From Giardia intestinalis (taxonomy: Eukaryota), in assembly GCA_000002435.2 (NCBI GenBank), contig CM018791.1: 64,000 nucleotides of DNA; one strand, given 5' to 3'. The translations under genes and the position numbers were made by a program. Positions within the stretch are counted from its first letter, which is position 1; every line of letters begins with the position of its first letter. This document shows, piece by piece, positions 2,088 to 49,668 of this stretch. The notes beneath the pieces are model-generated. The model was not told where the DNA came from. It did not search any database and was given only the letters and a program-made list of their open reading frames with translations.

Positions 2088-2600
2088 TAATCCATGTGGT
2101 GCAATTGCGCTACGTAAAGAGGCATGTTTTCCTTTATACCTGATTGACATGGACACCCTGAAATAATGTGCCTATCGATTCACATTGGATATAACTGAGA
2201 CACACATGCCTTAGAGCGCACGGATTGGTGCTTGTGAGCGAGGCTCAGCTTAGCTATGCTATGAGCAATACAGTGGCCCCTGAGCAGCCTGAAGGATGAC
2301 ACGCTTTTCGCCGATTGCTCGGTTTCTCCGCGCCTTAACTACCTCACCTTGTCCCTAGAACCGCTCGTGTCTATGCCCACTTCGGCAGAGAGTTGACTTT
2401 GATGGTTCACTCTGCAGATAAGGCTGTGTTGCCAGACAGAGTTCTGTATCTATGAAGGATGCAAAAACTTTCGGAGATTTGTCTTTGTCTACAATTTCTC
2501 GACGAGGAATATCTCAGCAGCAAATGCTCAGCGTATGCAGTGAAGGTTCTCGCCGTATTTTACCTTCGGCCTCGAGTTAATTTATTCTCGTTCAGAACCG

Positions 2601-5600
2601 ATGCTATCGGTTTTGTATCAAAATGCTATCTCTGAGGCGGAGGATCGGATGCAGGAGCTCGAGGACATCTTACATGAAACGGCAGCCCTTAGCTGCTCTC
2701 CAAACGGGGCAATCATGCTGAAAGATCTCATACAGACCTACAGAGCTCACATGAATGGCCGTGGCATATATGACGGCGAGGAGGGCTCGCTTTACTGCAG
2801 AATATTAAAGCTGAGCACCATGGTTGACGAGGAATTCTGCGCTCTTGCTTTGCGATTGAAGTCGAAGTCTAAGGCGCGCAACTGCGATTCCGCTGGGTCC
2901 CGATTGAGCGTCATCCCACATAGCGAGGGCGTGCCTTACGACCTTTGGAAGAAGTGCCTCAAACAGTATAAGGCTGAGCTGGCCCTTAATATTCTTGTAG
3001 ATGCGTACTCTCACTCTCGATCCAAGCGCCTTGCATTTCAAGGCTTAGTGCATGCTTACAACAGTAGAGCCAGCATGCTACTTCAGCGATCTTCATTCAG
3101 TTTGACCGAACCTGTAGAGGACTACTATTACCAAAGCACTTACTCTTCTGAAACCTCATTAACTCCCGATTCTGCTCTCCAAGATCAGAAAGCATTGCAA
3201 CCGGGTTTACCGGCTAATGAGGTCAACGCTTGTCAAGTTAGCGGGTTTCCATCCGATATTTGCGCTTTCAGCAGTAATCTGGTCGGCGCTAACCAGGCAT
3301 TTCCAAGCCTCGAGTTTCTGAACAGCGTTGCGGCCTCCAATCCTTTTAGAACTCGTGACGACGCAATGATGTCATCTGGCAACTCTGGATCCCAGCTTTT
3401 AGACGCAATAGGTGCAGTTGCAGGCCTGTATACGCAAAGCGAATTCCTTAGTTCACAACTTGGCCACCTCAGCGAATCAAAGGTTGAAGCAATTACTGTC
3501 CGCGAGGAAAAGCTACAAGCCTATGCAGACTGGTTTCAGAAAAAGATTTCACTCAAGCGCACACAACAGGCTTTGACCGCATGGAGACAGAAGTATCTAC
3601 GTGGCCTCGATCTGGAGGCACAGGTCCGCGAGAGCGTACTTCGTGCCGATCATCTCCTTGCGCGTACATTTGGTGCCATGCGATTGCACTTCTTGCGGTG
3701 GCAGCGGCTACTTCCCATTGCAAAAGAGTTTCATAGAGCACACCAGGCTCAATTTATAGCCACTGCCTTCAGTGCTTGGCGAGAGGCCACACGACTCATA
3801 AGCCCATATATTCTTCTCGAGCGACTCTATGAGGGAAGTGACAGACAGCTCCGCGATAGCAGGCGCACTCTTCCTCGAGACCTCGCTCTTTCGTCTGGCT
3901 TACAAGACCCCCGTCCATTGGAGACTAGCATGTCATTTTTATCTGTTTTGGGGATAACACCCCAGTTCATAGAGCAACGCCAGAAAAATCGGGTCCTGCA
4001 ATTTATTCGCTGTGCCCTTTGGCTCACGGCATACGTCCCCTCTTTGAGGAATGCCCACGCTGTGCTACTAAATGTGCACGCGCGCAGCCTTTATACGGCA
4101 TATCTGCAGGCGCTGAAAGAGGAAAGCGATCAACAAGGTCTTCCGGAAAAAGACCCCCAGGTCAGAAACAACGCAATGGTAGTCTTTCTTCAAACGCTGT
4201 TCTCTATGAAGCCTCATTTAATTTCTGGCATGCTTCCCATTACTATTAGCTCCCTGCGCCGAAACGTCGATTATCTGCGCGCCATACACGCCGCCAATGC
4301 CTATCAGCTTTTCGTCATGGAGGCCGGCTTCAACGCCTTTCGGAGGCACGCACACACTTCCAAGCTAGCGCTCTCCAAGCGCATAAAAGCTATTACGTTT
4401 GCGCGGTTCCGAAAGGGAGTGCGCTTGTTCCAATTTGATTGCATCGCACTTGAGCGGTACAATCAATTTCTGATCGGTCGTTTGTTTGATGCTATGCGTA
4501 CTAAAGTGCACTTTTCGCGCACAATGCAAACTATTGCTTCGCGTCTGAACTTAAATCTTATGCGGCGAAGCCTTAGGATGATGCATGACGTTTATCTCTT
4601 CCAACTTGTGCTTAGTCGAAATGAGGAGGCGCTTGTTACAAGGTCCAACTATACGCTCTTATCTACCGCATTTAGAAACTTGCATACACGATATGTAATC
4701 CTCTATCTGGTGCGATACCAGAATGCATCCATCTTGCGTGACTACTATCTCTATCGGAGAGCCTTTGAGTCCATTCTGCAAGTCCACGATCGACAGATGC
4801 GTGGAGAAGCCATTTACTCTAAAAGCTGTCTCAGTCTAATGCACCGCACGCTTTCAGGTATACTAGAGGCATCCAGTACCCAAAGACTTCGGTACGAACT
4901 AGCGTCTGGTCATTATACAAATATACTAGTCCGGGTACGGAATACTGTTTTTAGGCAGTGGAGGTGGCGCACAGCCGATGTGCGTGATTTGATACTTATA
5001 GCCGGGGAGCAGATAGCAGCTGTCGAAAGAGACTACAAGGCGCGCGCGTTTCAAGCATGGAGAGGAGTTTTCCAAGAGTTCCGGTCTTGTGAGCAATACC
5101 TGTCCCAGAAAGAGGGCACTCGGGTTCTTCGCACGGCGTATCGTGAGCTTTCTTGGCTATTTGGTCTTGCTCGAACAGCTGACAGACATAACAACATCCG
5201 TGAGCACCAGCGCAACATCTATGTGGCGGGAAAGATATTTCGGTCTATGCGCCAACTGTCTGCCCAAAAGGCTTTCAAGCGCAAAGAGATCGCAGAGGAG
5301 CTCCGTCGTAGATATAATGGCTACCTGCTTAAGCAGGCCATGCAAACGATCCTCTTGGCAATAAAGGGAATCGCTTTAACCCGGTTGGTCAACAGATGCC
5401 TTCTTCAGAGGTTCTTTTCCAATCTTGTGCAACAACACAGAGAGCTCATTCGTGAGCGGAATACAGAGCACAGAGTCAAAAACGGACTGGCACACTTGTC
5501 TGCCGAACAGATTGAGCGGCTAAAATCCAATGTGGCGACCTTGCTGAGCACGTTTGCCGATAGTGAGAAGACCTTCAATCACCAGCTCAATGCACACGTA

Positions 5601-7100
5601 TCTAAGGGAGATTTGATGAGCCTTCGCGGGTATCTTCTACAGTGGAAGCTCTATGCCAAAAAGAGCAGCAAACTTACTCAGCAGGAGGGCGCGGTAGTCA
5701 GCATTGTTACGACCCATGTGCTGAGCCTTGCGTGGCGTTCATGGCGGGCAGCCCTCGCCCTTGTCCAAAAAGGGCATGACATAGAGGTTCTGGTGGACGC
5801 TCGTCTATTGCGCCAGGCATGGGTGTGCATGCAAGCCTTGCTTTTTCATCTTCAGTACTGCGAAGTAGCTATTGAGCAGCGGACTCGCACCAGGTTACTG
5901 CGCTATACGCTTGATCATTTAGTTTATTCCCTGTCACTTTCACGCAGAGTTGTCAGTGTCTCCAGGCTAGCATACGTCCGAAGTGCGCGCGCTGTTTTTG
6001 CAGCACTAAGACACCGGCTAGCAGCGCTGCAGAAACTTCATAGCCTTATTTCTGCCTCTGCACGGAGGGCTGTTCTGCGCGTATATTTTAGACACTTAGC
6101 AGAGATATATCATACAAATCAGCGCATCAATCTACTAACTCGTCGATCCAATCTTTCGTGTCTAAAGAGAGCGTTTGCGCAGCTTGTTAACTCACATAGA
6201 CTCAGGGTCTTAGAAGCTAACCTTACATCACTTACTATCTGTCGCCTAAAGCGCGCAGCATTTTCTGTATGGACTCACAAGAATCGCAGGTCCGCACAGC
6301 TCCAACGAAGCTGCGATATGGCTCGCATTAGTATGGATAGCTGCTTAACTAAGCGGGCGTTCTTCGTGTGGGTCACGCGCTGCAAGCACCGCCTTAAGAT
6401 TGCTGCCTTGCAGGAGGATCTTTGTAGACGCCTGAACAAGCACCTTCTTCGCCAAGCATACGAGACCATCGTGGCCCGGGCAGAGGAGTTCCTCTTAAAT
6501 GAACAGTTGGTGCGAGGACTCTACTACTTACGTACTATGCGGGCATCCATGGATGCCCTGGTGACCTATGCTGCTGCCAAGAAGACTCAACGCACCGAGG
6601 CCGAGGCAGCTGCCGATGTCTTTAGAAGAACTGCACTTCTTAGACGATGCATGCTTTCTGGGCGCCGGAACTTAGCCAACAAGCAAACCATGCTTGCAGC
6701 GGCAGTGCGCTATGAGGAGACTCTAAAGCGGAAGGAACTTTCACTGATCTTTCAGCATTGGTTCGACAAAGCCCAGTTTCTTGCCGCTGCGGAAAGGCGA
6801 GTCTTGCCACTTTCCTATCGGTGGGCGCTCCCTGTCCACTTTTGGGCCTGGCTGTCTCTTGCACGGGCCATCTTACATCATAGACGGTACACAAAGCAGA
6901 CGTACCTCCGTCATTTACATAGGTACACTGATGCAGTAAACCGCATGAAAAGGCAAATGCGGACAAATAATCTACTAAAGCAAAAGGCAGACCACCTCAT
7001 CTCTGTGCAAAATAGAAAGTGCATGTTCGACGCGCTTCGCACAATGATGGATCAGTACTCCCGCCGGACTGGGGAGTGTGAGCACTGGCTGCTCACATAG
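2601..7100 (+). CDS. large alpha-helical repeat protein with Sfi1-like tryptophan repeats (candidate centrin-binding, basal-body protein)
   Basis: 1499-aa ORF with ATG start. It contains more than 20 copies of an [FL]xxW[RK]-type motif spaced roughly 30-35 residues apart. Examples: ALTAWRQKY, TAFSAWREA, RAFQAWRGV, FLRWQRLL, SLAWRSWR, AAFSVWTHK, RAFFVWVTR, LLQWKLYA. This resembles the Sfi1 repeat consensus A-x7-LL-x3-F/L-x2-W-K/R. Confidence 0.6.
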   Translation: MLSVLYQNAISEAEDRMQELEDILHETAALSCSPNGAIMLKDLIQTYRAHMNGRGIYDGEEGSLYCRILKLSTMVDEEFCALALRLKSKSKARNCDSAGSRLSVIPHSEGVPYDLWKKCLKQYKAELALNILVDAYSHSRSKRLAFQGLVHAYNSRASMLLQRSSFSLTEPVEDYYYQSTYSSETSLTPDSALQDQKALQPGLPANEVNACQVSGFPSDICAFSSNLVGANQAFPSLEFLNSVAASNPFRTRDDAMMSSGNSGSQLLDAIGAVAGLYTQSEFLSSQLGHLSESKVEAITVREEKLQAYADWFQKKISLKRTQQALTAWRQKYLRGLDLEAQVRESVLRADHLLARTFGAMRLHFLRWQRLLPIAKEFHRAHQAQFIATAFSAWREATRLISPYILLERLYEGSDRQLRDSRRTLPRDLALSSGLQDPRPLETSMSFLSVLGITPQFIEQRQKNRVLQFIRCALWLTAYVPSLRNAHAVLLNVHARSLYTAYLQALKEESDQQGLPEKDPQVRNNAMVVFLQTLFSMKPHLISGMLPITISSLRRNVDYLRAIHAANAYQLFVMEAGFNAFRRHAHTSKLALSKRIKAITFARFRKGVRLFQFDCIALERYNQFLIGRLFDAMRTKVHFSRTMQTIASRLNLNLMRRSLRMMHDVYLFQLVLSRNEEALVTRSNYTLLSTAFRNLHTRYVILYLVRYQNASILRDYYLYRRAFESILQVHDRQMRGEAIYSKSCLSLMHRTLSGILEASSTQRLRYELASGHYTNILVRVRNTVFRQWRWRTADVRDLILIAGEQIAAVERDYKARAFQAWRGVFQEFRSCEQYLSQKEGTRVLRTAYRELSWLFGLARTADRHNNIREHQRNIYVAGKIFRSMRQLSAQKAFKRKEIAEELRRRYNGYLLKQAMQTILLAIKGIALTRLVNRCLLQRFFSNLVQQHRELIRERNTEHRVKNGLAHLSAEQIERLKSNVATLLSTFADSEKTFNHQLNAHVSKGDLMSLRGYLLQWKLYAKKSSKLTQQEGAVVSIVTTHVLSLAWRSWRAALALVQKGHDIEVLVDARLLRQAWVCMQALLFHLQYCEVAIEQRTRTRLLRYTLDHLVYSLSLSRRVVSVSRLAYVRSARAVFAALRHRLAALQKLHSLISASARRAVLRVYFRHLAEIYHTNQRINLLTRRSNLSCLKRAFAQLVNSHRLRVLEANLTSLTICRLKRAAFSVWTHKNRRSAQLQRSCDMARISMDSCLTKRAFFVWVTRCKHRLKIAALQEDLCRRLNKHLLRQAYETIVARAEEFLLNEQLVRGLYYLRTMRASMDALVTYAAAKKTQRTEAEAAADVFRRTALLRRCMLSGRRNLANKQTMLAAAVRYEETLKRKELSLIFQHWFDKAQFLAAAERRVLPLSYRWALPVHFWAWLSLARAILHHRRYTKQTYLRHLHRYTDAVNRMKRQMRTNNLLKQKADHLISVQNRKCMFDALRTMMDQYSRRTGECEHWLLT

Positions 7101-9081
7101 GGCCGACTGTATCTAGAAATTCGTCTTCAAAACGTATAACCTGTTTAATTTGTGCCTGCGTTCCCTCCTTGAGGAGCCCGAAGATCTCGCGCAGTAGGGT
7201 CTGGTAGTGATTAATCCAGGTGTCTGGGACCCTGGATTCGTCACAGTTTTCGCTTGTATTAACAAGAAGGGTGTTTATAGAAACTCGTTTCTTCATGTTT
7301 TCTGTTGACTCTGCATAGAGTTCGTAGCTGAAGTAGGACTGTACAGACGTGCACAGCAGCTGTAAATGCCCCCGAGTGTCCATGCCCAGATACATGCCAT
7401 AGACGATATCTCGAAATATGCCGTAAAAGGTGTACAGCTCCAAGTCGCTCTCTATGTTCAGGAGCAATTCGGCAAATATGTTTGGGGGCATCACGTCGTT
7501 GTGAAAGGCGTCCCAGAGCTGCAGGGCAGCGTGCTGTGCAGGCCCTGCTTTCAGTTTTTGATGTAGATAGCCCCTTCTGGCGTCCATGATAGATCGTATA
7601 CTAGGAATGAGCTGCTCTATAATTCGCATTCTACTTCCACCACCCTGTCGTATGCCTGATACCAAGGTGGCTAGCTCTGCGGTTCTATCCGGGGGATCGT
7701 ACACAGAGCGGACGGCGGACTCCATTTGGACCTGCTCCTTAACTGCGGTCACCACTTTTTCACGCACAGCGCTGGAGCTCTGAGGCGCATGCTGAGCAGA
7801 ATGGTCTAGAATGGTGTGCGCCATGCTGACTGCCTTTAACTGAGATAACTTGTCTAGTGCAACCTTGCGAGCAGGCATTCTGGGCTCTTCTATTTGTGCT
7901 ATGCTAGGGGATTCCTTTATGGAGACTGCATGTTCCTCTGCCTGTTCTGGATGCTTTTCAACCATTTGCTTATCGGCCTTTGCCAATTTAGCCTGCGCTG
8001 GCTCCGTATGCGTAGGAGATGCCGCACTCTCCAGGTTGTTCCCACACTTTCGTGCAAGGCTCTTTAGCTTTGCCTTGAGAGTTTCATAGTCCTGTAATAC
8101 TTGAATTTCGCTCATATTTGGAGATATTCTGTACTCGTCAGTATCGCCCTTCAAAGCATGCTGTGTGACGTGCTTGAGACTATGAAAATCTGCAAGGCAT
8201 GGAAGAAATGCCACGGCCAGCGGCCAGCGAAACCCCGGTAAAGGCATGGTCTTTTTGCCGCATTTGGCGAACTTCTCTGCTAAGAACTGTCCGTTGGGTC
8301 TGGTTTCCATGTTAGACTGGTAACTATTCAGCAAGCTAACTAATTGCCTGATGAGCTTCCTGGTTTCGGCTTGGGGAAGTCCGTAAATGGTCCTTTCCGA
8401 AACCGGGGTCCAACCTCGTTTAGTGTATACGACAACTGGGTATGTTTGTGGTGCCTTGGAGTATGTAAGAGTGTATGAAGACTTTTGTGACTGCCGCGAA
8501 TCAGTCGTGGCTAGGCACTCATATTTGGTCAGCCCCGGCGACCACGCGATAGCTGTATTCGACATCAGCTTCTCCTTGTTCTCGTTAAAGATGCGGTTCA
8601 CAGAGGTGAGCACATAGGGGAGCCACTCTTCCTCCTTGTCGACATCAGATATTGTCCGCTGCAATGAAACGCGCGCACTCCCATCGCGCCGCTTCAGGAA
8701 GATTCCTCCGCTCCCGTCCAATTCGAAAGAGAAGCGTAGATCCATCTCCTCATTTTCGAACGCCCCCTGTTGGGAGCCCAGAGTCGACTTTGTCAGAAGA
8801 TCCAGGAGCGAAACTGGCAAATGCAGCGTAATCCCGTTCTCGCTGCGCAAACTCGCCCACATCCGCTCTATGCAATCCAGAAAAGATACTGCGTCATTGT
8901 TCAGTTTGTTCCGGAGCCTTTTGGCAAGTTGTGTCCCTGCTGATCCGCCTAAAAGGGTTAACACGCTCTGCAATGCAGATATGACTATCTTGCACTCTTC
9001 AGATGAATATAATTTTACTGACTCCTCATCATTGTCTGTGTCCTGACGTAGGAAGAGATAGGTTTGCTCGGTGAACTCCAT
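7093..9081 (-). CDS. hypothetical protein (662 aa)
   Basis: Long ORF with ATG start in an A-rich context (AAAACAAAGCTTAATGG). It is convergent with the previous gene and overlaps its 3' end by 8 bp. No recognisable motif. Confidence 0.6.
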   Translation of the reverse strand: MEFTEQTYLFLRQDTDNDEESVKLYSSEECKIVISALQSVLTLLGGSAGTQLAKRLRNKLNNDAVSFLDCIERMWASLRSENGITLHLPVSLLDLLTKSTLGSQQGAFENEEMDLRFSFELDGSGGIFLKRRDGSARVSLQRTISDVDKEEEWLPYVLTSVNRIFNENKEKLMSNTAIAWSPGLTKYECLATTDSRQSQKSSYTLTYSKAPQTYPVVVYTKRGWTPVSERTIYGLPQAETRKLIRQLVSLLNSYQSNMETRPNGQFLAEKFAKCGKKTMPLPGFRWPLAVAFLPCLADFHSLKHVTQHALKGDTDEYRISPNMSEIQVLQDYETLKAKLKSLARKCGNNLESAASPTHTEPAQAKLAKADKQMVEKHPEQAEEHAVSIKESPSIAQIEEPRMPARKVALDKLSQLKAVSMAHTILDHSAQHAPQSSSAVREKVVTAVKEQVQMESAVRSVYDPPDRTAELATLVSGIRQGGGSRMRIIEQLIPSIRSIMDARRGYLHQKLKAGPAQHAALQLWDAFHNDVMPPNIFAELLLNIESDLELYTFYGIFRDIVYGMYLGMDTRGHLQLLCTSVQSYFSYELYAESTENMKKRVSINTLLVNTSENCDESRVPDTWINHYQTLLREIFGLLKEGTQAQIKQVIRFEDEFLDTVGPM

Positions 9082-9148: not shown

Positions 9149-9883
9149 ATGACCCATGTGGCGCTAGACGACGAGGCCCGGCATGAGATCTATCTATGGG
9201 TCGACGGAATACCCCTTTCAAGGTCTAAGGGCTACATCTCGCGCGACTTTGCCGATGGCGTGCTGCTTGCAGAGGTTATCCATCACTTTCTCCCCAAGCT
9301 TGTGGAGCTTCACAACTATCAATCTACGACTAACTCCGAGGCCAAGAGAAAGAACTGGGAGACCCTACAGCAGAAGGTGCTCAAAAGGCTCCAGCTTAAG
9401 CTGAGCGCCGACGAGATTGATGCGCTCATTTCTGCAAAGCCAGGCGCAATTGAACGCGTGCTGATCCGGGTTCGCTCGGCCATTATGCGCGTAAGTGCAA
9501 GAAGCGAGGAGCATCCTTCGAGATCCGACCCGCGAGGAGACGAGCATCGCCTTCAAAGGCATCTTTCGGCCCCCAGTCGCTCAGCTCCTTCCGTAGCTAC
9601 TGCTTCTGCTGCAAACCAGCAGCATACGCCCGCTCCTGCACCTACCCTTCGAGTGGCTCCTCCTCCCCAGCCCCCTCCAGTCAGCAACACTTCTATTGGC
9701 TTGGCCGACCTGCACGACGGATCAAGCATTGCTAACGGAGACCTCATGGAAGAGAACACTCTCCTCAAACAGAAGATTGCCACGTTGGAAAAACTTCTTG
9801 CGGTGAAGAACGAGCGAATACTAGCCCTTGAGAGGAAAATAGAGCATCTTGAAGTAAAGCTCAAGCAGCGCAATGGCGCATAA
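9149..9883 (+). CDS. SPEF1/CLAMP-like calponin-homology domain protein with a C-terminal coiled coil (ciliary, microtubule-associated)
   Basis: The N-terminus matches the SPEF1 CH domain: WVDGIPLSRSKGYISRDFADGVLLAEVIHHFLPKLVELHNYQSTTNSEAK...NWETLQQKVLKRL. A proline-rich linker follows, then a heptad coiled coil (LLKQKIATLEKLLAVKNERILALERKIEHLEVKLK). Confidence 0.65.
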   Translation: MTHVALDDEARHEIYLWVDGIPLSRSKGYISRDFADGVLLAEVIHHFLPKLVELHNYQSTTNSEAKRKNWETLQQKVLKRLQLKLSADEIDALISAKPGAIERVLIRVRSAIMRVSARSEEHPSRSDPRGDEHRLQRHLSAPSRSAPSVATASAANQQHTPAPAPTLRVAPPPQPPPVSNTSIGLADLHDGSSIANGDLMEENTLLKQKIATLEKLLAVKNERILALERKIEHLEVKLKQRNGA

Positions 9884-39262: not shown

Positions 39263-39269
39263 GTTTACT
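39263..39269 (-). terminator. AGTAAAC polyadenylation signal about 15 nt after the VSP stop (left copy)
   Basis: The minus strand reads TAG-ATGTACTTAGGT-AGTAAAC. This matches the Giardia AGTPuAAPy poly(A) signal within the conserved VSP 3' sequence. Coordinates are accurate to about 1 nt. Confidence 0.55.
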
Positions 39270-39281
39270 ACCTAAGTACAT

Positions 39282-41381
39282 CTACGCTTTGCCTCTGCAG
39301 ATGAACCACCAGCAGAGGAAGCCAACGAGACCCCCAACGACGACGATGACTGCGACGGAGATGCCGGCTATGGCACCTGTGCTGAGCCCGCTCTTGTTCG
39401 TGCTTCCGCCAGTATTGTCGCCGGTATTATCATCCGTTTCGAAACATATGAACTTGCCGTTAACAGGTGTCGCGCACTGCCTGCATCCAGCCAGCCCCTC
39501 GGAGCACTTTCTGCACGGCCCATTACTGCTACTCTCCTTGTAATATCCAGGAGCACATACCTTGCATGTAGTAGCACCGGCTTCGCAGGTGTAGCAACTT
39601 TCGTGGCATTTCGTGCAGGCACTGCCAACCTTCACATATCCGTCCATACACCTAGAACAGTCCTTAGTGGTGGTGCATTCAGCGCACCCAGTGTAGCAAG
39701 TCACAAGGCTCTCGCCTGTCAGGCTAAATCCTTCTTCCGGAGTCTTGCAGATTCCGCCTGTACTCTGCGCACTCAAGCACACTGTCGACCCCGGAAGCTG
39801 GCTGGTGGAGTAGCAGCCGCCGTTCATCTTGAAGAAGCCGTCTGCGCAGACATTGCACACGCCACCGGTAATGCTTCCATCTTTGCACTTATCTGTGCGA
39901 CTGGCTTTAACAGCACAGACGCCGTTCTGGGGATACTCGTTGTTTTGACTACAGACAGAGCAGTATTTTGTCCCCTCAACAGTCAGACCGCACTCCCTGC
40001 ACTTGCCTGTGCCTGTGCCCGCCGCGCACTCGGCCCCACATGTGCCAGTGTTTCCTGTGGATCCGTAGGTGAGCGTGCTTCCAGACTTACAGCTTGTGCA
40101 ATCATTGGCAGTATTTCCGCTACATGTCTTACAGCTGGAATCGCAAGGGGAGCACGCTTCGCCGTAGAAGCCGTCCTTACAGAGACCGCACCCGCCATTT
40201 TCACTGCACGCGAGACAGTTGGCGACCTCGCACTTCTTGCAGACCCTCTTGTTGCCCTCTGTGCTACTGTAGTAGCCTAGAATATATTCGCAGTGGTCTA
40301 TGCACTGGTTTGTTGGCGTCAGATACTTGTTGGACAGACATTCGGTGCAGATCTCTTTGTTTGTTTGTGCACCACTGCATGCCTTACAATCCTGAGTACT
40401 GCATGGATTTGAAGGGGAATCATTTGGCACGCATTGTGTTTCTTCTTCGTTAAGCTTAAATCCATCATTGCACGTGCAAGTATTCTCGGTCTTGGCTTCT
40501 GAGTTATCAGGGCAGCTACTAATGCACGACTTCTTTCCGAGTCCAAATACCATATTTTCCTTGCACGCTGTGCAGGTAACGGAGGTGTCACTTTTGGTGC
40601 ATGTTTTGCAGTTCTCAAACGTTCCTGCCGTGCACGGCTTGCAACTCTTAGGCTCGGTATCATCTGGGTAGAGGGTAGAATCGGTGGAGCATTGATTTCC
40701 TTCTACACATATCCCCGTTAGACTACCGCTTTCCTTCTTTAAATACATCTTACTGGTAGCCTTGCACTTGCTGCACTTCTTTGTGGTTGTCGCCTCTGTA
40801 CATGTAGCGCAGTTCTCGTCGCCGCAAGCTATGCAGGTCGTAGTGCCTGCGCCGAAATAGCCTTCATCACACGCGGTGCATGTAGCAGGGCCAGTATTGC
40901 TTGGAGGATTACATGTTTTACATTGATCTACACCTTGATATTGATCTGCCCCCGTCGTGTCATTACAGGAGATGCACGATTGCTTATTAGCGGCTGCCAC
41001 TGGACTCTTAAAGAATCCTTCCACGCAATCCTTGCAGACTCCTGTTACTTTACCAACTGTCGCCCCTCCTGCTGGGTCGGCACAGATAAGCCCGCCCAAT
41101 TCGCCAGCAAATTCATAACATCCGCCCTTGTACATGAAGTATCCATCGCCGCAAGAGCCACACTTTCCTTGAGCAGGGGAAGCGCATTTAGCAGCTGCTT
41201 GGTCAGTCCCTGCTGGTACACATTCTCCATCAATAAGGTGGTCTGTTTCGGTTTTACACTGTGTGCAAACTTCCGTTTTGCCAATCATATCACACTCACC
41301 ATCTTTACACTTACTTGCAGTTGGCCCACTGCACGATGCTGCAAGAGCACTTATCAAAAGGCAGGGAGCTAGTAGCAACAT
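39282..41381 (-). CDS. vsp: variant-specific surface protein (VSP), left copy
   Basis: CXXC motifs throughout, a GGCY motif (MNGGCY), a C-terminal TM helix and the invariant CRGKA* tail. The ORF-track start at 41468 is a TTG. ATG at 41381 gives a typical VSP signal peptide, MLLLAPCLLISALAASC. Confidence 0.85.
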   Translation of the reverse strand: MLLLAPCLLISALAASCSGPTASKCKDGECDMIGKTEVCTQCKTETDHLIDGECVPAGTDQAAAKCASPAQGKCGSCGDGYFMYKGGCYEFAGELGGLICADPAGGATVGKVTGVCKDCVEGFFKSPVAAANKQSCISCNDTTGADQYQGVDQCKTCNPPSNTGPATCTACDEGYFGAGTTTCIACGDENCATCTEATTTKKCSKCKATSKMYLKKESGSLTGICVEGNQCSTDSTLYPDDTEPKSCKPCTAGTFENCKTCTKSDTSVTCTACKENMVFGLGKKSCISSCPDNSEAKTENTCTCNDGFKLNEEETQCVPNDSPSNPCSTQDCKACSGAQTNKEICTECLSNKYLTPTNQCIDHCEYILGYYSSTEGNKRVCKKCEVANCLACSENGGCGLCKDGFYGEACSPCDSSCKTCSGNTANDCTSCKSGSTLTYGSTGNTGTCGAECAAGTGTGKCRECGLTVEGTKYCSVCSQNNEYPQNGVCAVKASRTDKCKDGSITGGVCNVCADGFFKMNGGCYSTSQLPGSTVCLSAQSTGGICKTPEEGFSLTGESLVTCYTGCAECTTTKDCSRCMDGYVKVGSACTKCHESCYTCEAGATTCKVCAPGYYKESSSNGPCRKCSEGLAGCRQCATPVNGKFICFETDDNTGDNTGGSTNKSGLSTGAIAGISVAVIVVVGGLVGFLCWWFICRGKA

Positions 41382-42070
41382 TGTGGCTCTGCTCAGATTG
41401 TTAGGTACATGCGAATGGGGAACCATTCGTAACCTGACCTCTAGCCATCCAATGCTAGAGCTTACCAATCCAGTAGCATAGCAATTACTTTAGGAATGCT
41501 GATCTATTTATAGAGTACATCACACAAAATAACTATATGACGTTTACTTAGGTAGCCGATGCATCAGTTATCGTATCATTATAGATTTATAGGTTGCACC
41601 ATAAAAGTTATGCGCAAACCTCCACATAGATGCCTAAGGCCACAAGTCGAAGACGAAAGGCAGAAGCTAAAAAGCAATTCCCCGTGACTCTTGACCCCCA
41701 CTTTTGCACCGTCCCCATTCGATGCAGGATGCCTCATCATCCTGTCCTTTCAAGTCTCTATGCGTGATCCGTGGCCTTGTGTTCCGCACTGTGCCTTGCA
41801 TCCTGGTAGTCACCTCCACCGGGTCCTTGCCAGCGGGACCGACGGTCTCACAGCGATCGCGTATGACAGAGCAGTCACCATCTGATGTGCGAGCCCTGTG
41901 ATAGGCCGTGATGTTGGAAGGCGACATCGGTCAAAGAGGAGGCATAGCCACACATTACGAGCCACGATGACATGACACATTGCATAGCATCGTGATATAT
42001 GCGTGCATAACCGGTACACCAATAGGCATAGAAACAGCACACCAGTGCTACCAGGTCATGATGACCACTC

Positions 42071-45917: not shown

Positions 45918-47549
45918 AAATTGAGCGGGAATTTACTCGCGAGATTTGCGGACAGCGCCCGCAGGCGAGGGCCCCAGCAGCACACCACTGGAAGCAACCG
46001 GTGGGTGGAGTAAATCATCTGGGTGCCTTCTTGGCTTTTCGCTTCAGGGTTCTATGAGGTTTCCTCGGTGGCGCTTTCATGGGAGCAGCCGCGGGTCTGT
46101 TGTTTGATGAAGGCTGGACGTTAGGGCGTCTTTTTCCGCCGGAATTACGGCACCGGATTCTAGGTTTGGATTTTGGGTTCTGGACTCTGTTTGGGAGTAA
46201 GCGGGAGATCCACCTGTCCAGGGCGGTAGTAGCTCGCATGGGAGGTCGCTCAGGTAGCAAGGGACAACCCCACCCCGGTGAAGTGGAGAGTAAATTAAGT
46301 TCAAGGGGCCCAGCGACGCCGGGAGCGCTCTGTCTGGCCTTCACTACCCTGTGGCGTCCACCTGGCAACTCCTCCTGCCGGCCTGCTTCTAACTGTCGAC
46401 TGGACCCACTGACCTGGGGGACTACGAACAGGAGGGAACGCCGGCCTCCGGGACCACGGCTGGACGGACACCGAGAGACGACCCCAGCCAGTAAAGCTAG
46501 ACCTCGACAGCAGCCGTCGCGACAGAGGAGACTTCTATTGAAAAGGAAGTGACAACCCAGGCTCGTTCACCAGACGGCAGATTAAAAAGCGAGGCATACT
46601 AATGGACAACGTGTGTCCTTGCAAAGGTCTGAACCCTGGACAGACACACGAGCACCCCTGGACACGCACATCGCATGAAGCGACCGAGGAATACAAGAGA
46701 CTCTAATATACAAATGGAGGGAAATTCCCTTAATATACCATCAACGATCAACCCTTGTCTCCACACTGGCCATGACTTGGATGAGACTTACTTGTGAAGT
46801 CTCTGGACTACGCCTGTAGGTAGGCTCCAGTAGCACAGTCTTAAAAATAACTGGTGGGTAGAGTGGTCATCATGACCTGGTAGCACTGGTGTGCTGTTTC
46901 TATGCCTATTGGTGTACCGGTTATGCACGCATATATCACGATGCTATGCAATGTGTCATGTCATCGTGGCTCGTAATGTGTGGCTATGCCTCCTCTTTGA
47001 CCGATGTCGCCTTCCAACATCACGGCCTATCACAGGGCTCGCACATCAGATGGTGACTGCTCTGTCATACGCGATCGCTGTGAGACCGTCGGTCCCGCTG
47101 GCAAGGACCCGGTGGAGGTGACTACCAGGATGCAAGGCACAGTGCGGAACACAAGGCCACGGATCACGCATAGAGACTTGAAAGGACAGGATGATGAGGC
47201 ATCCTGCATCGAATGGGGACGGTGCAAAAGTGGGGGTCAAGAGTCACGGGGAATTGCTTTTTAGCTTCTGCCTTTCGTCTTCGACTTGTGGCCTTAGGCA
47301 TCTATGTGGAGGTTTGCGCATAACTTTTATGGTGCAACCTATAAATCTATAATGATACGATAACTGATGCATCGGCTACCTAAGTAAACGTCATATAGTT
47401 ATTTTGTGTGATGTACTCTATAAATAGATCAGCATTCCTAAAGTAATTGCTATGCTACTGGATTGGTAAGCTCTAGCATTGGATGGCTAGAGGTCAGGTT
47501 ACGAATGGTTCCCCATTCGCATGTACCTAACAATCTGAGCAGAGCCACA

Positions 47550-49649
47550 ATGTTGCTACTAGCTCCCTGCCTTTTGATAAGTGCTCTTGCAGCATCGTGC
47601 AGTGGGCCAACTGCAAGTAAGTGTAAAGATGGTGAGTGTGATATGATTGGCAAAACGGAAGTTTGCACACAGTGTAAAACCGAAACAGACCACCTTATTG
47701 ATGGAGAATGTGTACCAGCAGGGACTGACCAAGCAGCTGCTAAATGCGCTTCCCCTGCTCAAGGAAAGTGTGGCTCTTGCGGCGATGGATACTTCATGTA
47801 CAAGGGCGGATGTTATGAATTTGCTGGCGAATTGGGCGGGCTTATCTGTGCCGACCCAGCAGGAGGGGCGACAGTTGGTAAAGTAACAGGAGTCTGCAAG
47901 GATTGCGTGGAAGGATTCTTTAAGAGTCCAGTGGCAGCCGCTAATAAGCAATCGTGCATCTCCTGTAATGACACGACGGGGGCAGATCAATATCAAGGTG
48001 TAGATCAATGTAAAACATGTAATCCTCCAAGCAATACTGGCCCTGCTACATGCACCGCGTGTGATGAAGGCTATTTCGGCGCAGGCACTACGACCTGCAT
48101 AGCTTGCGGCGACGAGAACTGCGCTACATGTACAGAGGCGACAACCACAAAGAAGTGCAGCAAGTGCAAGGCTACCGGTAAGATGTATTTAAAGAAGGAA
48201 AGCGGTAGTCTAACGGGGATATGTGTAGAAGGAAATCAATGCTCCACCGATTCTACCCTCTACCCAGATGATACCGAGCCTAAGAGTTGCAAGCCGTGCA
48301 CGGCAGGAACGTTTGAGAACTGCAAAACATGCACCAAAAGTGACACCTCCGTTACCTGCACAGCGTGTAAGGCAAATATGGTATTTGGACTCGGAAAGAA
48401 GTCGTGCATTAGTAGCTGCCCTGATAACTCAGAAGCCAAGACCGAGAATACTTGCACGTGCAATGATGGATTTAAGCTTAACGAAGAAGAAACACAATGC
48501 GTGCCAAATGATTCCCCTTCAAATCCATGCAGTACTCAGGATTGTAAGGCATGCAGTGGTGCACAAACAAACAAAGAGATCTGCACCGAATGTCTGTCCA
48601 ACAAGTATCTGACGCCAACAAACCAGTGCATAGACCACTGCGAATATATTCTAGGCTACTACAGTAGCACAGAGGGCAACAAGAGGGTCTGCAAGAAGTG
48701 CGAGGTCGCCAACTGTCTCGCGTGCAGTGAAAATGGCGGGTGCGGTCTCTGTAAGGACGGCTTCTACGGCGAAGCGTGCTCCCCTTGCGATTCCAGCTGT
48801 AAGACATGTAGCGGAAATACTGCCAATGATTGCACAAGCTGTAAGTCTGGAAGCACGCTCACCTACGGATCCACAGGAAACACTGGCACATGTGGGGCCG
48901 AGTGCGCGGCGGGCACAGGCACAGGCAAGTGCAGGGAGTGCGGTCTGACTGTTGAGGGGACAAAATACTGCTCTGTCTGTAGTCAAAACAACGAGTATCC
49001 CCAGAACGGCGTCTGTGCTGTTAAAGCCAGTCGCACAGATAAGTGCAAAGATGGAAGCATTACCGGTGGCGTGTGCAATGTCTGCGCAGACGGCTTCTTC
49101 AAGATGAACGGCGGCTGCTACTCCACCAGCCAGCTTCCGGGGTCGACAGTGTGCTTGAGTGCGCAGAGTACAGGCGGAATCTGCAAGACTCCGGAAGAAG
49201 GATTTAGCCTGACAGGCGAGAGCCTTGTGACTTGCTACACTGGGTGCGCTGAATGCACCACCACTAAGGACTGTTCTAGGTGTATGGACGGATATGTGAA
49301 GGTTGGCAGTGCCTGCACGAAATGCCACGAAAGTTGCTACACCTGCGAAGCCGGTGCTACTACATGCAAGGTATGTGCTCCTGGATATTACAAGGAGAGT
49401 AGCAGTAATGGGCCGTGCAGAAAGTGCTCCGAGGGGCTGGCTGGATGCAGGCAGTGCGCGACACCTGTTAACGGCAAGTTCATATGTTTCGAAACGGATG
49501 ATAATACCGGCGACAATACTGGCGGAAGCACGAACAAGAGCGGGCTCAGCACAGGTGCCATAGCCGGCATCTCCGTCGCAGTCATCGTCGTCGTTGGGGG
49601 TCTCGTTGGCTTCCTCTGCTGGTGGTTCATCTGCAGAGGCAAAGCGTAG
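47550..49649 (+). CDS. vsp: variant-specific surface protein (VSP), right copy. It differs from the left copy at 2 residues (Ser/Gly and Glu/Ala) plus one synonymous change.
   Basis: Same features as the left copy, ending ...CWWFICRGKA*. The track start at 47463 is a TTG. ATG at 47550 gives MLLLAPCLLISALAASC. Confidence 0.85.
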   Translation: MLLLAPCLLISALAASCSGPTASKCKDGECDMIGKTEVCTQCKTETDHLIDGECVPAGTDQAAAKCASPAQGKCGSCGDGYFMYKGGCYEFAGELGGLICADPAGGATVGKVTGVCKDCVEGFFKSPVAAANKQSCISCNDTTGADQYQGVDQCKTCNPPSNTGPATCTACDEGYFGAGTTTCIACGDENCATCTEATTTKKCSKCKATGKMYLKKESGSLTGICVEGNQCSTDSTLYPDDTEPKSCKPCTAGTFENCKTCTKSDTSVTCTACKANMVFGLGKKSCISSCPDNSEAKTENTCTCNDGFKLNEEETQCVPNDSPSNPCSTQDCKACSGAQTNKEICTECLSNKYLTPTNQCIDHCEYILGYYSSTEGNKRVCKKCEVANCLACSENGGCGLCKDGFYGEACSPCDSSCKTCSGNTANDCTSCKSGSTLTYGSTGNTGTCGAECAAGTGTGKCRECGLTVEGTKYCSVCSQNNEYPQNGVCAVKASRTDKCKDGSITGGVCNVCADGFFKMNGGCYSTSQLPGSTVCLSAQSTGGICKTPEEGFSLTGESLVTCYTGCAECTTTKDCSRCMDGYVKVGSACTKCHESCYTCEAGATTCKVCAPGYYKESSSNGPCRKCSEGLAGCRQCATPVNGKFICFETDDNTGDNTGGSTNKSGLSTGAIAGISVAVIVVVGGLVGFLCWWFICRGKA

Positions 49650-49661
49650 ATGTACTTAGGT

Positions 49662-49668
49662 AGTAAAC
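49662..49668 (+). terminator. AGTAAAC polyadenylation signal after the right VSP copy
   Basis: TAG-atgtacttaggt-AGTAAAC immediately 3' of the stop. Confidence 0.55.

What the first reader, a model, noticed from the sequence alone, without database searches (positions are those of the whole stretch)
2601..7100. 1499-aa protein built from Sfi1-like tryptophan repeats
There are dozens of [FL]-x-x-W-[RK] motifs with a period of about 33 residues. For example, AAFSVWTHK and RAFFVWVTR are exactly 33 residues apart. Each is embedded in helical, Leu/Arg-rich sequence. This matches the architecture of Sfi1, the centrin-binding scaffold of centrosomes and basal bodies. Giardia has eight basal bodies and several centrins, so a Sfi1-like scaffold is a plausible, testable assignment for this unannotated-looking giant ORF.
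Basis: partly seen in the sequence, partly recalled or inferred. Interest (0 to 1): 0.5.

Follow-up and report, generated by a model that had tools for sequence, protein, structure and literature searches.

The report
Giardia's divergent Sfi1-like centrin scaffold
This 1,499-residue Giardia "hypothetical protein" (GL50803_0023556) is a long, basic, almost proline-free helix carrying about 28 degenerate copies of the Sfi1 centrin-binding repeat, so it is most likely the parasite's Sfi1-type scaffold for basal bodies and spindle poles; this is a useful annotation, not a new kind of protein.

Summary
The ORF (2601..7100, +) is real and 100% identical to Giardia intestinalis WB GL50803_0023556, annotated "hypothetical protein". 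There are 5 strict [FL]xxW[RK] motifs and 21 Trp in all, not dozens. Still, 5 is about nine times the shuffle expectation, and the quoted pair (W1224/W1257) is exactly 33 residues apart.

The underlying repeat is L-L-x-x-A-F-x-x-[W/L/M/I]. It recurs about 28 times, with spacings clustered at 29-30 and 33 residues. Trp is kept in only 9 copies.

A scoring matrix trained only on diplomonad repeats scores two crystallographically or NMR-defined centrin-binding Sfi1 repeats (human, 2K2I; yeast, 2DOQ) at about 15 bits, in the exact register. Pfam Sfi1 is the top or only hit in 5 of 7 orthologues (two above threshold) and in none of their reversed sequences. The window protein itself gets no Pfam hit.

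The repeat region has 2 Pro in 939 residues, pI 11 and predicted helices that span 2-3 repeats.

Centrin binding and localisation are untested. Novelty is modest: Giardia Sfi1 repeats were used in a 2006 analysis, and UniRef already names the P15 orthologue an Sfi1-domain protein.

The parts
2601..7100 (+). Complete ORF, 1,499 aa plus stop. This is GL50803_0023556, annotated as a hypothetical protein in Giardia intestinalis WB.
   Evidence: ORF list and translation. It is 100% identical to P0006 / XP_037901878.1. Orthologues of the same length align without gaps in assemblages A2, E and B and in two further Giardia lineages, at 66-99% identity. More distant orthologues exist in G. muris (25% identity) and in an unnamed diplomonad (21% identity).
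2577..2586 (+). AT-rich stretch TTAATTTATT, 15-24 nt upstream of the ATG. It is a possible Giardia-type initiator or promoter element.
   Evidence: Sequence only. The assignment is an inference from general knowledge of short AT-rich Giardia promoters and was not tested.
2601..3488 (+). N-terminal non-array region, residues 1-296. It is acidic (pI 5.2), has 10 Pro, and contains a Ser/Gln-rich low-complexity middle. It holds one minimal motif (YDLWK, W116) and an A-F-x-x-L (residues 145-149) 33 residues later.
   Evidence: Composition. Alignment A3 shows the conserved SSN (224-226) and L149. Pfam finds no family.
3489..3797 (+). First short repeat cluster, residues 297-399. Anchor positions are W311, W328, M360, W367 and W393. 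The 328->360->393 spacing is 32 and 33.
   Evidence: Motif list and chain. W311, W328, W367 and W393 are invariant in the six aligned G. intestinalis-complex sequences. The best Pfam Sfi1 stretch of the P15 orthologue covers residues 300-398.
3798..4280 (+). Proline-containing insert that interrupts the array, residues 400-560, with 10 Pro.
   Evidence: Proline positions. Helices are broken or absent in the model (model residues 99-260).
4233..4274 (+). The most conserved motif of the whole family, L-P-x-x-x-S-S-L-R-R-N-[VL]-D-Y (residues 545-558), just before the main array. Its function is unknown.
   Evidence: P546, S551, L552, R553, R554, N555, D557 and Y558 are invariant in all 7 diplomonad sequences.
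4281..7097 (+). Main Sfi1-like repeat array, residues 561-1499. It has about 25 repeats with consensus L-L-x-x-A-F-x-x-[W/L/M/I]-(R). It has 2 Pro in 939 aa, pI 11.0 and net charge +99.
   Evidence: Repeat chain with anchor residues 580, 632, 661, 694, 725, 754, 787, 820, 857, 942, 1015, 1048, 1077, 1107, 1136, 1166, 1195, 1224, 1257, 1290, 1320, 1354, 1387, 1417 and 1482. Composition. The anchor position is invariant in 21 of 25 repeats across five orthologues, against a 48% background.
4428..5201 (+). Uninterrupted run of 8 repeats. Anchors are M632, M661, L694, I725, I754, W787, W820 and A857 (alternatively L850). Gaps are 29, 33, 31, 29, 33, 33 and 37.
   Evidence: The best Pfam Sfi1 stretch in the assemblage B orthologue covers residues 681-867.
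5577..6881 (+). Uninterrupted run of 14 repeats. Anchors are W1015, W1048, M1077, L1107, L1136, L1166, L1195, W1224, W1257, I1290, L1320, G1354, W1387 and W1417. Gaps are 33, 29, 30, 29, 30, 29, 29, 33, 33, 30, 34, 33 and 30.
   Evidence: AlphaFold2 on residues 1185-1335 gives two helices of 78 and 67 residues, spanning 3 and 2 repeats, at mean pLDDT 60. The Pfam Sfi1 stretch in orthologue P0004 covers residues 1086-1206.
6204..6401 (+). They are among the better Trp-containing repeats, alongside W820 and W1048.
   Evidence: scores 5.8 and 11.7 bits. W1224 and W1257 are invariant in the six aligned G. intestinalis-complex sequences. W1257 is invariant in all 7 diplomonad sequences.

Best explanation
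GL50803_0023556 is the diplomonad version of Sfi1, a filament-forming scaffold for centrin.

Shown:
- The protein has an acidic N-terminal region, a short cluster of repeats, a proline-containing insert with one invariant motif, and then a roughly 940-residue, highly basic, nearly proline-free helical region.
- In total it carries about 28 copies of a short motif, L(-8) L(-7) x x A(-4) F(-3) x x [W/L/M/I](0), spaced 29-30 or 33 residues apart.
- The motif is statistically the same as the Sfi1 centrin-binding repeat.

Inferred:
- Each repeat presents the 'reversed 8-4-1' hydrophobic triad (L-7, F-3, W/hydrophobic 0) that the C-terminal lobe of centrin clamps.
- The helix would therefore be coated by many copies of Giardia centrin (GL50803_6744) and/or caltractin (GL50803_104685).
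- This would form a Sfi1-centrin fibre at the basal bodies and spindle poles, where both centrins are known to sit.
- There it would act in basal-body duplication, separation or nucleus attachment.

The two spacing classes differ by about one helical turn. That is the same way variable repeat lengths are accommodated in fungal Sfi1.
For: Identity and reality of the gene:
- It is conserved with no indels across Giardia assemblages, and orthologues exist in G. muris and another diplomonad.

Repeats are real:
- The strict motif occurs 5 times against 0.57 expected.
- The degenerate 9-mer occurs 12, 15 and 14 times against about 2 expected in the three divergent orthologues, with a shuffle maximum of 7-8 in 2,000.
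- A scoring matrix trained on the other two species finds 15-20 sites per protein, against fewer than 1 in shuffles.
- The chain gives 28 repeats, with gaps peaking at 29-30 and 33.
- The periodicity control was reached by 0 of 2,000 random placements.
- The anchor position is the most conserved position of the repeat, invariant in 84% against a 48% background.

The repeat is Sfi1-type:
- The diplomonad matrix scores the human SFI1 R17 peptide of PDB 2K2I at 15.1 bits. This peptide was chosen a priori and verified.
- It scores a yeast Sfi1p repeat of 2DOQ at 14.6 bits.
- In both, the best position is exactly the Sfi1 tryptophan.
- The random probability of reaching 12 bits or more is 1.5e-5 per position.
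- With the Trp column removed the scores are still 10.4 and 9.8 bits.
- A 33-column profile of 46 diplomonad repeats ranks SFI1p (2doq_D) 4th of 177,635 PDB sequences, aligned LL/F/W in register, although the E-value of 0.61 is not significant on its own.
- Pfam Sfi1 PF08457 is the top or only hit in 5 orthologues, at 16.2-24.5 bits; two exceed the 22-bit threshold. All hits fall in the repeat region.
- Pfam Sfi1 hits none of 5 reversed sequences and not the 1 shuffled sequence.

Physical properties match Sfi1:
- 2 Pro in 939 aa. Kilmartin 2003 reports 0-2 Pro in Sfi1 repeat regions (PMC2173958).
- pI 11.0 and net charge +99.
- The long model is about 84% helical, with helices up to 80 residues.
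- The short model has 78- and 67-residue helices spanning 2-3 repeats.

Literature:
- The consensus AX7LLX3F/LX2WK/R, the 33-residue repeat in non-fungal species, and turn-spaced length classes in fungi (PMC2173958, PMC2063913).
- The 8-4-1 triad (PMC8622359).
- Two Giardia centrins located at basal bodies (PMC12307541, PMC4931700).
- Sfi1-like proteins are accepted on motif content without sequence homology (PMC10180636).
Against: - The window protein itself has no Pfam Sfi1 hit, even at E <= 10.
- An exhaustive profile search of 1.84 billion representatives found only diplomonad orthologues and no canonical Sfi1 at E <= 1e-3.
- Whole-protein and whole-family profiles do not hit Sfi1p in the PDB.
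- Only 9 of 28 repeats keep the anchoring Trp, which is the main determinant of centrin binding (PMC8622359).
- The Ala at -16 of the published consensus is replaced by Ile/Met, and the +1 basic residue is poorly conserved (20%).
- The array is interrupted by a 160-residue proline-containing insert and has about 28 repeats, rather than 20-24 continuous ones.
- Both structure models are of low confidence (pLDDT 36 and 60).
- There is no localisation, interaction or expression evidence, and no paper names the gene.
- I could not scan the rest of the Giardia proteome, so another and better Sfi1 candidate cannot be excluded.
Confidence: 0.65

Rival explanations
1. It is an Sfi1-repeat protein, but not the functional equivalent of Sfi1 in basal-body or spindle-pole duplication. 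Instead it would scaffold centrin or another EF-hand protein in a different, lineage-specific fibre. Examples of such a fibre are nucleus-to-basal-body connectors or a contractile element. The ciliate Sfr proteins and the Paramecium centrin-binding protein of the infraciliary lattice are precedents.
For: - It has more repeats (about 28-33) than the 20-24 reported for Sfi1 proper (PMC2063913).
- Most repeats lack Trp.
- The insert and its invariant LPxxxSSLRRN[VL]DY motif are lineage-specific.
- Ciliates have large families of Sfi1-repeat proteins with distinct locations and functions (PMC5483020).
- A centrin-dependent nucleus-to-basal-body attachment has been proposed in Giardia (PMC4931700).
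Against: - Only one such family was recovered from diplomonads in the exhaustive search, so nothing here points to an expanded Sfr-like family.
- Giardia centrins are reported at basal bodies and spindle poles, and at nuclei for centrin 2, not in a separate lattice.
Confidence: 0.2
2. It is a decayed Sfi1 relative. The repeats descend from Sfi1 repeats, but most have lost the Trp anchor. The protein would now be a basic helical structural protein that binks few or no centrins.
For: - Trp is at the anchor in only 9 of 28 repeats here, 10 of 29 in G. muris and 7 of 33 in the third orthologue.
- Trp is described as the major anchoring determinant (PMC8622359).
Against: - The anchor position, whether Trp or Leu/Met/Ile, is the most conserved position of the repeat among assemblages: 84% invariant against a 48% background.
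- The -3 position is hydrophobic in 28 of 28 repeats, and -7 in 23 of 28.
- According to the centrin review, positions 1 and 4 of the triad need only be hydrophobic.
- The regular spacing is maintained in three species that share only 21-25% identity, which argues for continuing selection on a periodic ligand.
Confidence: 0.1
3. It is a helix-turn-helix alpha-solenoid (TPR/HAT/Sel1-like repeats of about 30-34 residues) or an ordinary coiled-coil protein. On this reading the resemblance to Sfi1 is due to composition and helical periodicity.
For: - The repeat length is close to TPR/HAT units.
- Conservation follows a hydrophobic stripe at 0, -3/-4, -7/-8 and -11.
- The low-confidence 1,200-residue model breaks helices every 40-60 residues.
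Against: - There is no Pfam TPR, HAT, Sel1, IQ or coiled-coil family hit, even at E <= 10.
- There are 2 Pro in 939 residues, so there are few turn formers.
- The short-fragment model gives helices of 78 and 67 residues covering 3 and 2 repeats, with no hairpin per repeat.
- Reversed sequences, which keep composition and helical periodicity, lose every Pfam Sfi1 hit.
- The matrix recognises true Sfi1 repeats in register even without the Trp column.
- Glu + Lys is only 9.3%, which is atypical for coiled coils.
Confidence: 0.04
4. It is a chance pattern: a few Trp motifs in a large Leu/Arg-rich ORF, with no real repeat.
For: - Long-range segment-against-segment profile alignments are weak (best P = 0.0045).
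- A matrix built from the 8 Trp repeats alone, with the Trp column dropped, finds no significant extra copies: 8 against 5.1 +/- 2.0.
Against: - All motif and periodicity tests exceed every shuffle.
- The pattern replicates in orthologues with only 21-25% identity.
- Motif density is 8-15 times that of the other 25 ORFs of the window.
Confidence: 0.01

Closest known systems
Sfi1 / SFI1 (S. cerevisiae Sfi1p, human SFI1; Pfam PF08457), the centrin-binding filament of the spindle-pole-body half-bridge and of centrioles
   Same: - A tandem array of short helical repeats with the core LLx3[F/L]x2W.
- 33-residue spacing, plus a second length class about one helical turn shorter.
- A near absence of proline, a strongly basic charge, and non-conserved N- and C-terminal ends.
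- The diplomonad repeat matrix scores real centrin-bound Sfi1 repeats at about 15 bits in register.
- Pfam Sfi1 is the recurrent weak hit of the family.
   Different: - Trp is kept in only about a third of the repeats.
- The Ala at -16 and the basic residue at +1 are not conserved.
- There are about 28 repeats instead of 20-24.
- The array is split by a 160-residue proline-containing insert with a diplomonad-specific invariant motif.
- The WB protein itself is below Pfam detection.
- No global homology is detectable, although this is also true between fungal and human Sfi1 (PMC2173958).
PfSlp (Plasmodium falciparum Sfi1-like protein, PF3D7_0710000) and TgSfi1
   Same: [quoted passage not shown]
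- The Giardia protein has 6 such motifs, 4.0 per 1,000 aa, against 0.26 per 1,000 aa in neighbouring ORFs.
   Different: - PfSlp is 407 kDa, and its centrin interaction and centriolar-plaque location have been shown experimentally.
- The Giardia protein is 174 kDa and is untested.
- The Giardia protein additionally shows a regular 29-33-residue array.
Ciliate Sfi1-repeat proteins (Tetrahymena Sfr1-Sfr13; Paramecium PtCenBP1 of the infraciliary lattice)
   Same: They are long arrays of Sfi1-type repeats that scaffold centrins at or near basal bodies (PMC5483020).
   Different: - In ciliates they form large paralogous families with distinct asymmetric locations.
- Only one diplomonad family was found here.
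- Repeat numbers and unit lengths differ. This last point rests on my own knowledge and was not tested.
POC5
   Same: It contains Sfi1-like centrin-binding repeats, and a Giardia homologue is reported (PMC2700515).
   Different: - POC5 has only a tandem pair plus one repeat, short coiled coils and a conserved 21-residue box.
- The present protein has about 28 repeats and none of that organisation was seen.
- The POC5 box itself was not searched for here.

Membership tests
Sfi1 (Sfi1-repeat centrin-binding scaffold) | [quoted passage not shown] | tested here: met
   There are 6 motifs (5 with [FL]), against 0.57 expected from shuffles. Density is 4.0 per 1,000 aa, against 0.26 per 1,000 aa in the other 25 ORFs of the window.
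Sfi1 (Sfi1-repeat centrin-binding scaffold) | Extended repeat consensus (A-x7-)L-L-x3-[F/L]-x2-W-[K/R] in a fixed register | tested here: met
   Across the 28 repeats: -8 is L/V/M/F in 19, -7 is L/M/I/Y in 23, -3 is F/L/W/M/I/Y in all 28, and 0 is W/L/M/I/F in 26. The diplomonad matrix scores human (2K2I) and yeast (2DOQ) Sfi1 repeats at 15.1 and 14.6 bits, at the Trp register. Not reproduced: the Ala at -16 (here Ile/Met) and a conserved basic residue at +1 (R or K in 12 of 28; 20% invariant).
Sfi1 (Sfi1-repeat centrin-binding scaffold) | Tryptophan at the anchor position of nearly every repeat (the most conserved column of published logos) | tested here: not met
   Trp is at the anchor in 9 of 28 repeats; the rest are L (8), M (5), I (3), F, A and G. 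The figures are 10 of 29 in G. muris and 7 of 33 in the third orthologue. For this reason I file the protein as a divergent, Sfi1-like member and not as a canonical one.
Sfi1 (Sfi1-repeat centrin-binding scaffold) | Regular repeat spacing: 23-36 residues overall, 33 predominant outside fungi, with length classes one helical turn apart | tested here: met
   Gaps fall at 29-30 (10 times) and 33 (8 times) in this protein. Pooled over three species, 29 gaps are at 29-30 and 25 at 33-34, with few at 31-32. The random-position control was reached by 0 of 2,000 placements.
Sfi1 (Sfi1-repeat centrin-binding scaffold) | About 20 or more repeats forming a continuous array | tested here: inconclusive
   There are about 28 repeats, with uninterrupted runs of 14 and 8. 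The array is also broken by a 160-residue proline-containing insert (residues 400-560) and by three gaps of 65-85 residues where repeats score too weakly to call.
Sfi1 (Sfi1-repeat centrin-binding scaffold) | Repeat region is one long alpha-helix (very low proline; helix continuous across repeats) | tested here: inconclusive
   There are 2 Pro in 939 residues. AlphaFold2 gives 84% helix with helices up to 80 residues at pLDDT 36. The fragment model gives helices of 78 and 67 residues spanning 3 and 2 repeats at pLDDT 60. This is consistent with a long helix, but the models are of low confidence.
Sfi1 (Sfi1-repeat centrin-binding scaffold) | Pfam PF08457 match at or above the gathering score (22 bits) | tested here: not met
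   The window protein has no hit at E <= 10. Orthologue scores are 24.3 and 24.5 bits (pass) and 18.5, 16.2 and 16.9 bits (below threshold); one orthologue has no hit. Reversed and shuffled controls gave 0 hits in 6 sequences.
Sfi1 (Sfi1-repeat centrin-binding scaffold) | Binds multiple centrin molecules on the repeats | not testable with these tools
   No multimer prediction or experiment was available. The Giardia centrins GL50803_6744 and GL50803_104685 are the candidate partners (PMC12307541).
Sfi1 (Sfi1-repeat centrin-binding scaffold) | Localises to the spindle pole, centriole or basal body | not testable with these tools
   No paper names the gene. It is absent from the basal-body protein table of PMC4931700.
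TPR/HAT-like alpha-solenoid | A helix-turn-helix hairpin in every unit of about 34 residues, recognisable by TPR-clan profiles | tested here: not met
   No TPR-clan Pfam hit at E <= 10. Predicted helices span 2-3 repeat units. There are 2 Pro in 939 residues.
IQ-motif calmodulin-binding array | Repeated IQxxxRGxxxR motifs (Pfam IQ, PF00612) | tested here: not met
   No Pfam IQ hit at E <= 10. The repeat consensus is LLxxAFxx[W/hydrophobic], not IQxxxRG.

The most novel reading that the evidence does not exclude
The diplomonad protein is a genuinely altered Sfi1 scaffold with two kinds of binding site: a minority of canonical Trp repeats and a majority of Trp-less Leu/Met/Ile repeats, arranged with two spacings of 29-30 and 33 residues. 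On this reading it would recruit two different EF-hand partners along one helix, for example centrin and caltractin, or centrin and a Giardia-specific calmodulin-like protein. The invariant LPxxxSSLRRN[VL]DY motif would serve as a lineage-specific docking or regulatory site. My evidence does not exclude this. However, the simplest version, in which Trp repeats go with the 33-residue spacing, was not significant (pooled Fisher p = 0.13).
Probability: 0.15. Interest if true: 0.55.

Novelty: new member of a known kind. Interest (0 to 1): 0.3.

Why it matters
Giardia segregates eight basal bodies and two nuclei at each division. Its two centrins sit at the basal bodies and spindle poles, yet the published Giardia basal-body inventories I could read list no centrin-binding scaffold.

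Assigning GL50803_0023556 as the Sfi1-type partner gives a concrete, testable handle on basal-body duplication and separation, through tagging, knock-down and peptide binding.

It also extends the Sfi1 repeat to a deep-branching metamonad lineage, in a form where most repeats have replaced the 'essential' Trp. That bears on what a centrin-binding site minimally needs.

The finding is incremental. Giardia Sfi1 repeats were already pooled into the 2006 repeat logo (accession not available to me), and UniRef automatically names the P15 orthologue an Sfi1-domain protein.

Tried and rejected
- **Pfam and PDB searches with the whole protein or the family profile**. No Sfi1 hit; only noise (HWE_HK, TAL effector, parvalbumin).
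- **Exhaustive profile search of 1.84 billion representatives** with residues 300-1499 of five orthologues. Only diplomonad orthologues came back, and no canonical Sfi1.
- **Word-indexed search with the 7-sequence family alignment**. Nothing new.
- **Search with the duplicated human SFI1 R17 peptide to fetch real SFI1 proteins**. The query was too short, and then there were no candidates. I therefore could not build an independent Sfi1 repeat profile or run a profile-profile comparison.
- **Segment-against-segment hhalign inside the protein**. Best P = 0.0045. The repeats are motif-level only, with no long alignable units.
- **HMM or matrix seeded only on the 8 Trp repeats**. This recovers only the seeds. 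With the Trp column dropped, the extra hits are not above chance (8 against 5.1 +/- 2.0). The degenerate repeats became significant only with the LLxxAFxx[hydrophobic] definition and cross-species training.
- **Global phase coherence of Trp positions at a single period**. There is no clean 33-residue peak, because the spacing is mixed.
- **Hypothesis that Trp repeats go with 33-residue gaps and Trp-less repeats with 29-30**. WB p = 0.07, pooled p = 0.13. Rejected as unsupported.
- **Fold search.** Not run, because both models are low-confidence, isolated long helices and the matches would be meaningless.
- **Synteny of the third orthologue's contig**. Uninformative, and the organism of sample SRR31929897 is unknown.
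- **Literature search for the gene identifier**. No paper was found. The supplement of Li et al. 2006 with the Giardia accession is not held. Lauwaet 2011 and Stemm-Wolf 2013 are not held.

Full report
**What is there**

Window 2601..7100 (+) is one ORF of 1,499 codons. Its product is 100% identical to GL50803_0023556 (XP_037901878.1), a "hypothetical protein" of Giardia intestinalis WB.

Orthologues of exactly 1,499 aa align without a single gap in assemblage E (P15, 85% identity), assemblage B (72%) and two further Giardia lineages from raw-read assemblies (70% and 66%). An exhaustive profile search of 1.84 billion representative proteins added G. muris GMRT_13804 (1,495 aa, E = 3e-56, 25% identity). 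It also added a 1,569-aa protein from an unnamed diplomonad-like sample (E = 1e-18, 21% identity), and nothing else. The gene is therefore real, conserved and diplomonad-wide.

The upstream neighbour is a PHD-finger protein. The downstream neighbours are an unassigned 662-aa ORF, which overlaps the stop codon by 8 nt on the other strand, and a SPEF1-like CH-domain protein. As this is a eukaryote, I draw no functional inference from the neighbours.

**Checking the observation**

The claim of "dozens of [FL]xxW[RK]" is not correct. The protein has 21 Trp and 5 strict motifs, or 6 with the published minimal motif [FLW]xxW[KR].

Five is nevertheless about nine times the shuffle expectation (0.57; maximum 4-5 in 2,000 shuffles). 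Motif density is 4.0 per 1,000 aa, against 0.26 in the other 25 long ORFs of this window.

The wider claim of a periodic repeat needed more work.
- Long segment-against-segment profile alignments are weak.
- A matrix seeded only on the Trp repeats finds nothing more.
- Reading the G. muris orthologue, which keeps 33 Trp, made the unit obvious: L-L-x-x-A-F-x-x-W, the core of the published Sfi1 consensus AX7LLX3[F/L]X2W[K/R] (PMC2173958). In G. intestinalis the Trp is usually replaced by Leu, Met or Ile.

The relaxed 9-mer occurs 12, 15 and 14 times in the three divergent orthologues, against about 2 +/- 1.4 in shuffles (maximum 7-8 in 2,000). Matrices trained on two species and applied to the third find 15-20 sites per protein, against fewer than 1 in shuffles.

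Chaining the sites gives 28 repeats in the window protein, including uninterrupted runs of 8 (anchors 632-857) and 14 (anchors 1015-1417). Neighbour gaps fall at 29-30 (10 times) and 33 (8 times). Pooled over the three species the gap histogram is bimodal: 29 gaps at 29-30, 25 at 33-34 and only 4 at 31-32. Keeping the peak heights but randomising their positions never reproduces the 28-34 lag signal (0 of 2,000).

The repeat is real and periodic. It is much more degenerate than described, and it has two spacings about one helical turn apart.

**Is it the Sfi1 repeat?**

Four independent lines of evidence say yes.

1. *Pfam.* Pfam Sfi1 (PF08457) is the top or only hit in five of the seven orthologues, at 24.5, 24.3, 18.5, 16.9 and 16.2 bits against a gathering score of 22. 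The hits always fall in the repeat region. The same five sequences reversed, plus one shuffled, give no Sfi1 hit at E <= 10. The signal is therefore directional and not compositional.
2. *PDB ranking.* A 33-column profile of 46 diplomonad repeats, searched against 177,635 distinct PDB sequences, ranks yeast SFI1p (2doq_D) fourth. LL, F and W align in the expected columns. The E-value of 0.61 is not significant alone, but the rank is telling.
3. *Scoring real Sfi1 repeats.* I recalled the human SFI1 R17 peptide, which has been solved bound to centrin 2, and verified it as 2k2i_B. The diplomonad matrix scores it at 15.1 bits and the yeast repeat at 14.6 bits. In both, the maximum falls exactly on the Sfi1 Trp. 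The per-position chance of 12 bits or more is 1.5e-5. With the Trp column removed the scores are still 10.4 and 9.8 bits.
4. *Physical properties.* The array has 2 Pro in 939 residues, against 3-6% Pro in the flanking regions; Kilmartin reports 0-2 Pro in Sfi1 repeat regions. It has pI 11.0 and net charge +99, which suits acidic centrins (that last point is my own knowledge). It is predicted to be almost wholly helical, with helices longer than a repeat. The 1,200-residue model has pLDDT 36, is 84% helical and has helices up to 80 residues. The 151-residue fragment has pLDDT 60 and two helices of 78 and 67 residues covering 3 and 2 repeats.

The two spacing classes mirror what Li et al. describe for fungal Sfi1, where repeat lengths cluster at values one helical turn apart and 33 residues gives the ideal 60-degree rotation (PMC2063913).

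**What argues against strict membership**

- The window protein itself gets no Pfam Sfi1 hit.
- No canonical Sfi1 is retrieved by profile search, and whole-protein profiles miss Sfi1p in the PDB. Lack of detectable global homology is normal for this family, however. Kilmartin found E = 0.096 between Candida and human, and PfSlp was named with "no clear sequence homology".
- More substantively, only 9 of 28 repeats keep the Trp that anchors centrin. The Ala at -16 and the basic +1 residue are not conserved.
- There are about 28 rather than 20-24 repeats.
- The array is interrupted by a 160-residue proline-containing insert.

Against simple decay, the anchor position is the most conserved column of the repeat among Giardia assemblages (84% invariant against a 48% background). 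Position -3 is hydrophobic in all 28 repeats. The centrin literature requires only that triad positions 1 and 4 be hydrophobic (PMC8622359).

**Mechanism proposed**

Shown: the repeat architecture and its equivalence to Sfi1 repeats at sequence level.

Inferred:
- Each repeat offers the reversed 8-4-1 triad (L-7, F-3, W or hydrophobic at 0) to the C-lobe of a centrin.
- Many centrins coat a single long helix.
- The resulting fibre acts at the basal bodies and spindle poles, where Giardia centrin (GL50803_6744) and caltractin (GL50803_104685) are located (PMC12307541, PMC4931700).

I put this at 0.65. The main alternative (0.2) is that it is an Sfi1-repeat scaffold used in a different, lineage-specific centrin fibre, as in ciliates. 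A decayed, non-binding relative gets 0.1. The solenoid/coiled-coil reading (0.04) and the chance reading (0.01) are essentially excluded.

**Novelty**

Li et al. 2006 included "Giardia lamblia" repeats in their 454-repeat logo. The accession is in a supplement I could not read, so I cannot prove it is this gene. UniRef automatically names the P15 orthologue "Sfi1 spindle body domain-containing protein".

Even so, the WB and G. muris genes remain "hypothetical". The Giardia basal-body review lists no Sfi1, the 2025 centrin paper cites Sfi1 only in its reference list, and no paper mentions the gene identifier.

This is a new, divergent member of a known kind. It is a sound and testable annotation, of moderate-to-low surprise.

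**Limits**

- I could not obtain full-length canonical Sfi1 sequences, so no profile-profile test was possible.
- I could not scan the Giardia proteome for competing candidates.
- I could not model complexes with centrin.
- Some motif definitions were refined after looking at the sequences. The cross-species training, the a priori reader motif and the a priori human peptide are the tests free of that bias.

Noticed in passing
window 36924-43009 and 45922-52007: A perfect (100% complementary) 6,086-nt inverted repeat with a 2,912-nt spacer. Each arm carries an identical 728-aa variant-specific surface protein gene (ORFs 39282..41468 - and 47463..49649 +; Pfam VSP, E = 8.6e-135). This could be a recent inverted duplication or gene conversion of a VSP locus, or an assembly feature.
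   Followed up: partly
window 4233-4274 (protein residues 545-558): L-P-x-x-x-S-S-L-R-R-N-[VL]-D-Y is the most conserved stretch of the whole protein family. Eight of its residues are invariant across sequences that otherwise share only 21-25% identity. It lies in the proline-containing insert just before the main repeat array. It has no known match, and it might be a docking or phosphorylation site.
   Followed up: partly
window 4281-7097 (protein residues 561-1499), and orthologues P0034 and P0036: Repeat spacing is bimodal (29-30 and 33-34, with almost nothing at 31-32) in all three divergent orthologues. I tested whether Trp-containing repeats go with the 33-residue spacing. This was suggestive in WB (p = 0.07) but not when pooled (p = 0.13).
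   Followed up: yes
window 9149-9883 (+): A 244-aa protein with a CH_2 / CAMSAP-type calponin-homology domain (Pfam CH_2, E = 1.4e-31). This is the SPEF1/CLAMP type found in flagellar microtubule-associated proteins. It lies two genes downstream of the Sfi1-like gene. The proximity is probably coincidental in a eukaryote.
   Followed up: no
window 7093-9081 (-): A convergent 662-aa ORF with no Pfam hit overlaps the last 8 nt (including the stop codon) of the Sfi1-like ORF. This illustrates how tightly packed this region is.
   Followed up: no
window 2088-2600: There is a 513-nt gap with no ORF of 150 aa or more between the PHD-finger gene and the Sfi1-like gene. In strain DHA2 the orthologue is annotated 50 aa longer at the N-terminus (1,549 aa), but in this window the ORF scan finds no in-frame start upstream of the ATG at 2601, so a stop codon precedes it. 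I did not check whether the gap holds a small RNA or an unannotated gene.
   Followed up: no
protein P0035 (104 aa, from the representative library): This fragment is identical to residues about 1057-1111 of the window protein, flanked by unrelated sequence. It is most likely a frameshifted or chimeric short contig and not a separate gene.
   Followed up: no
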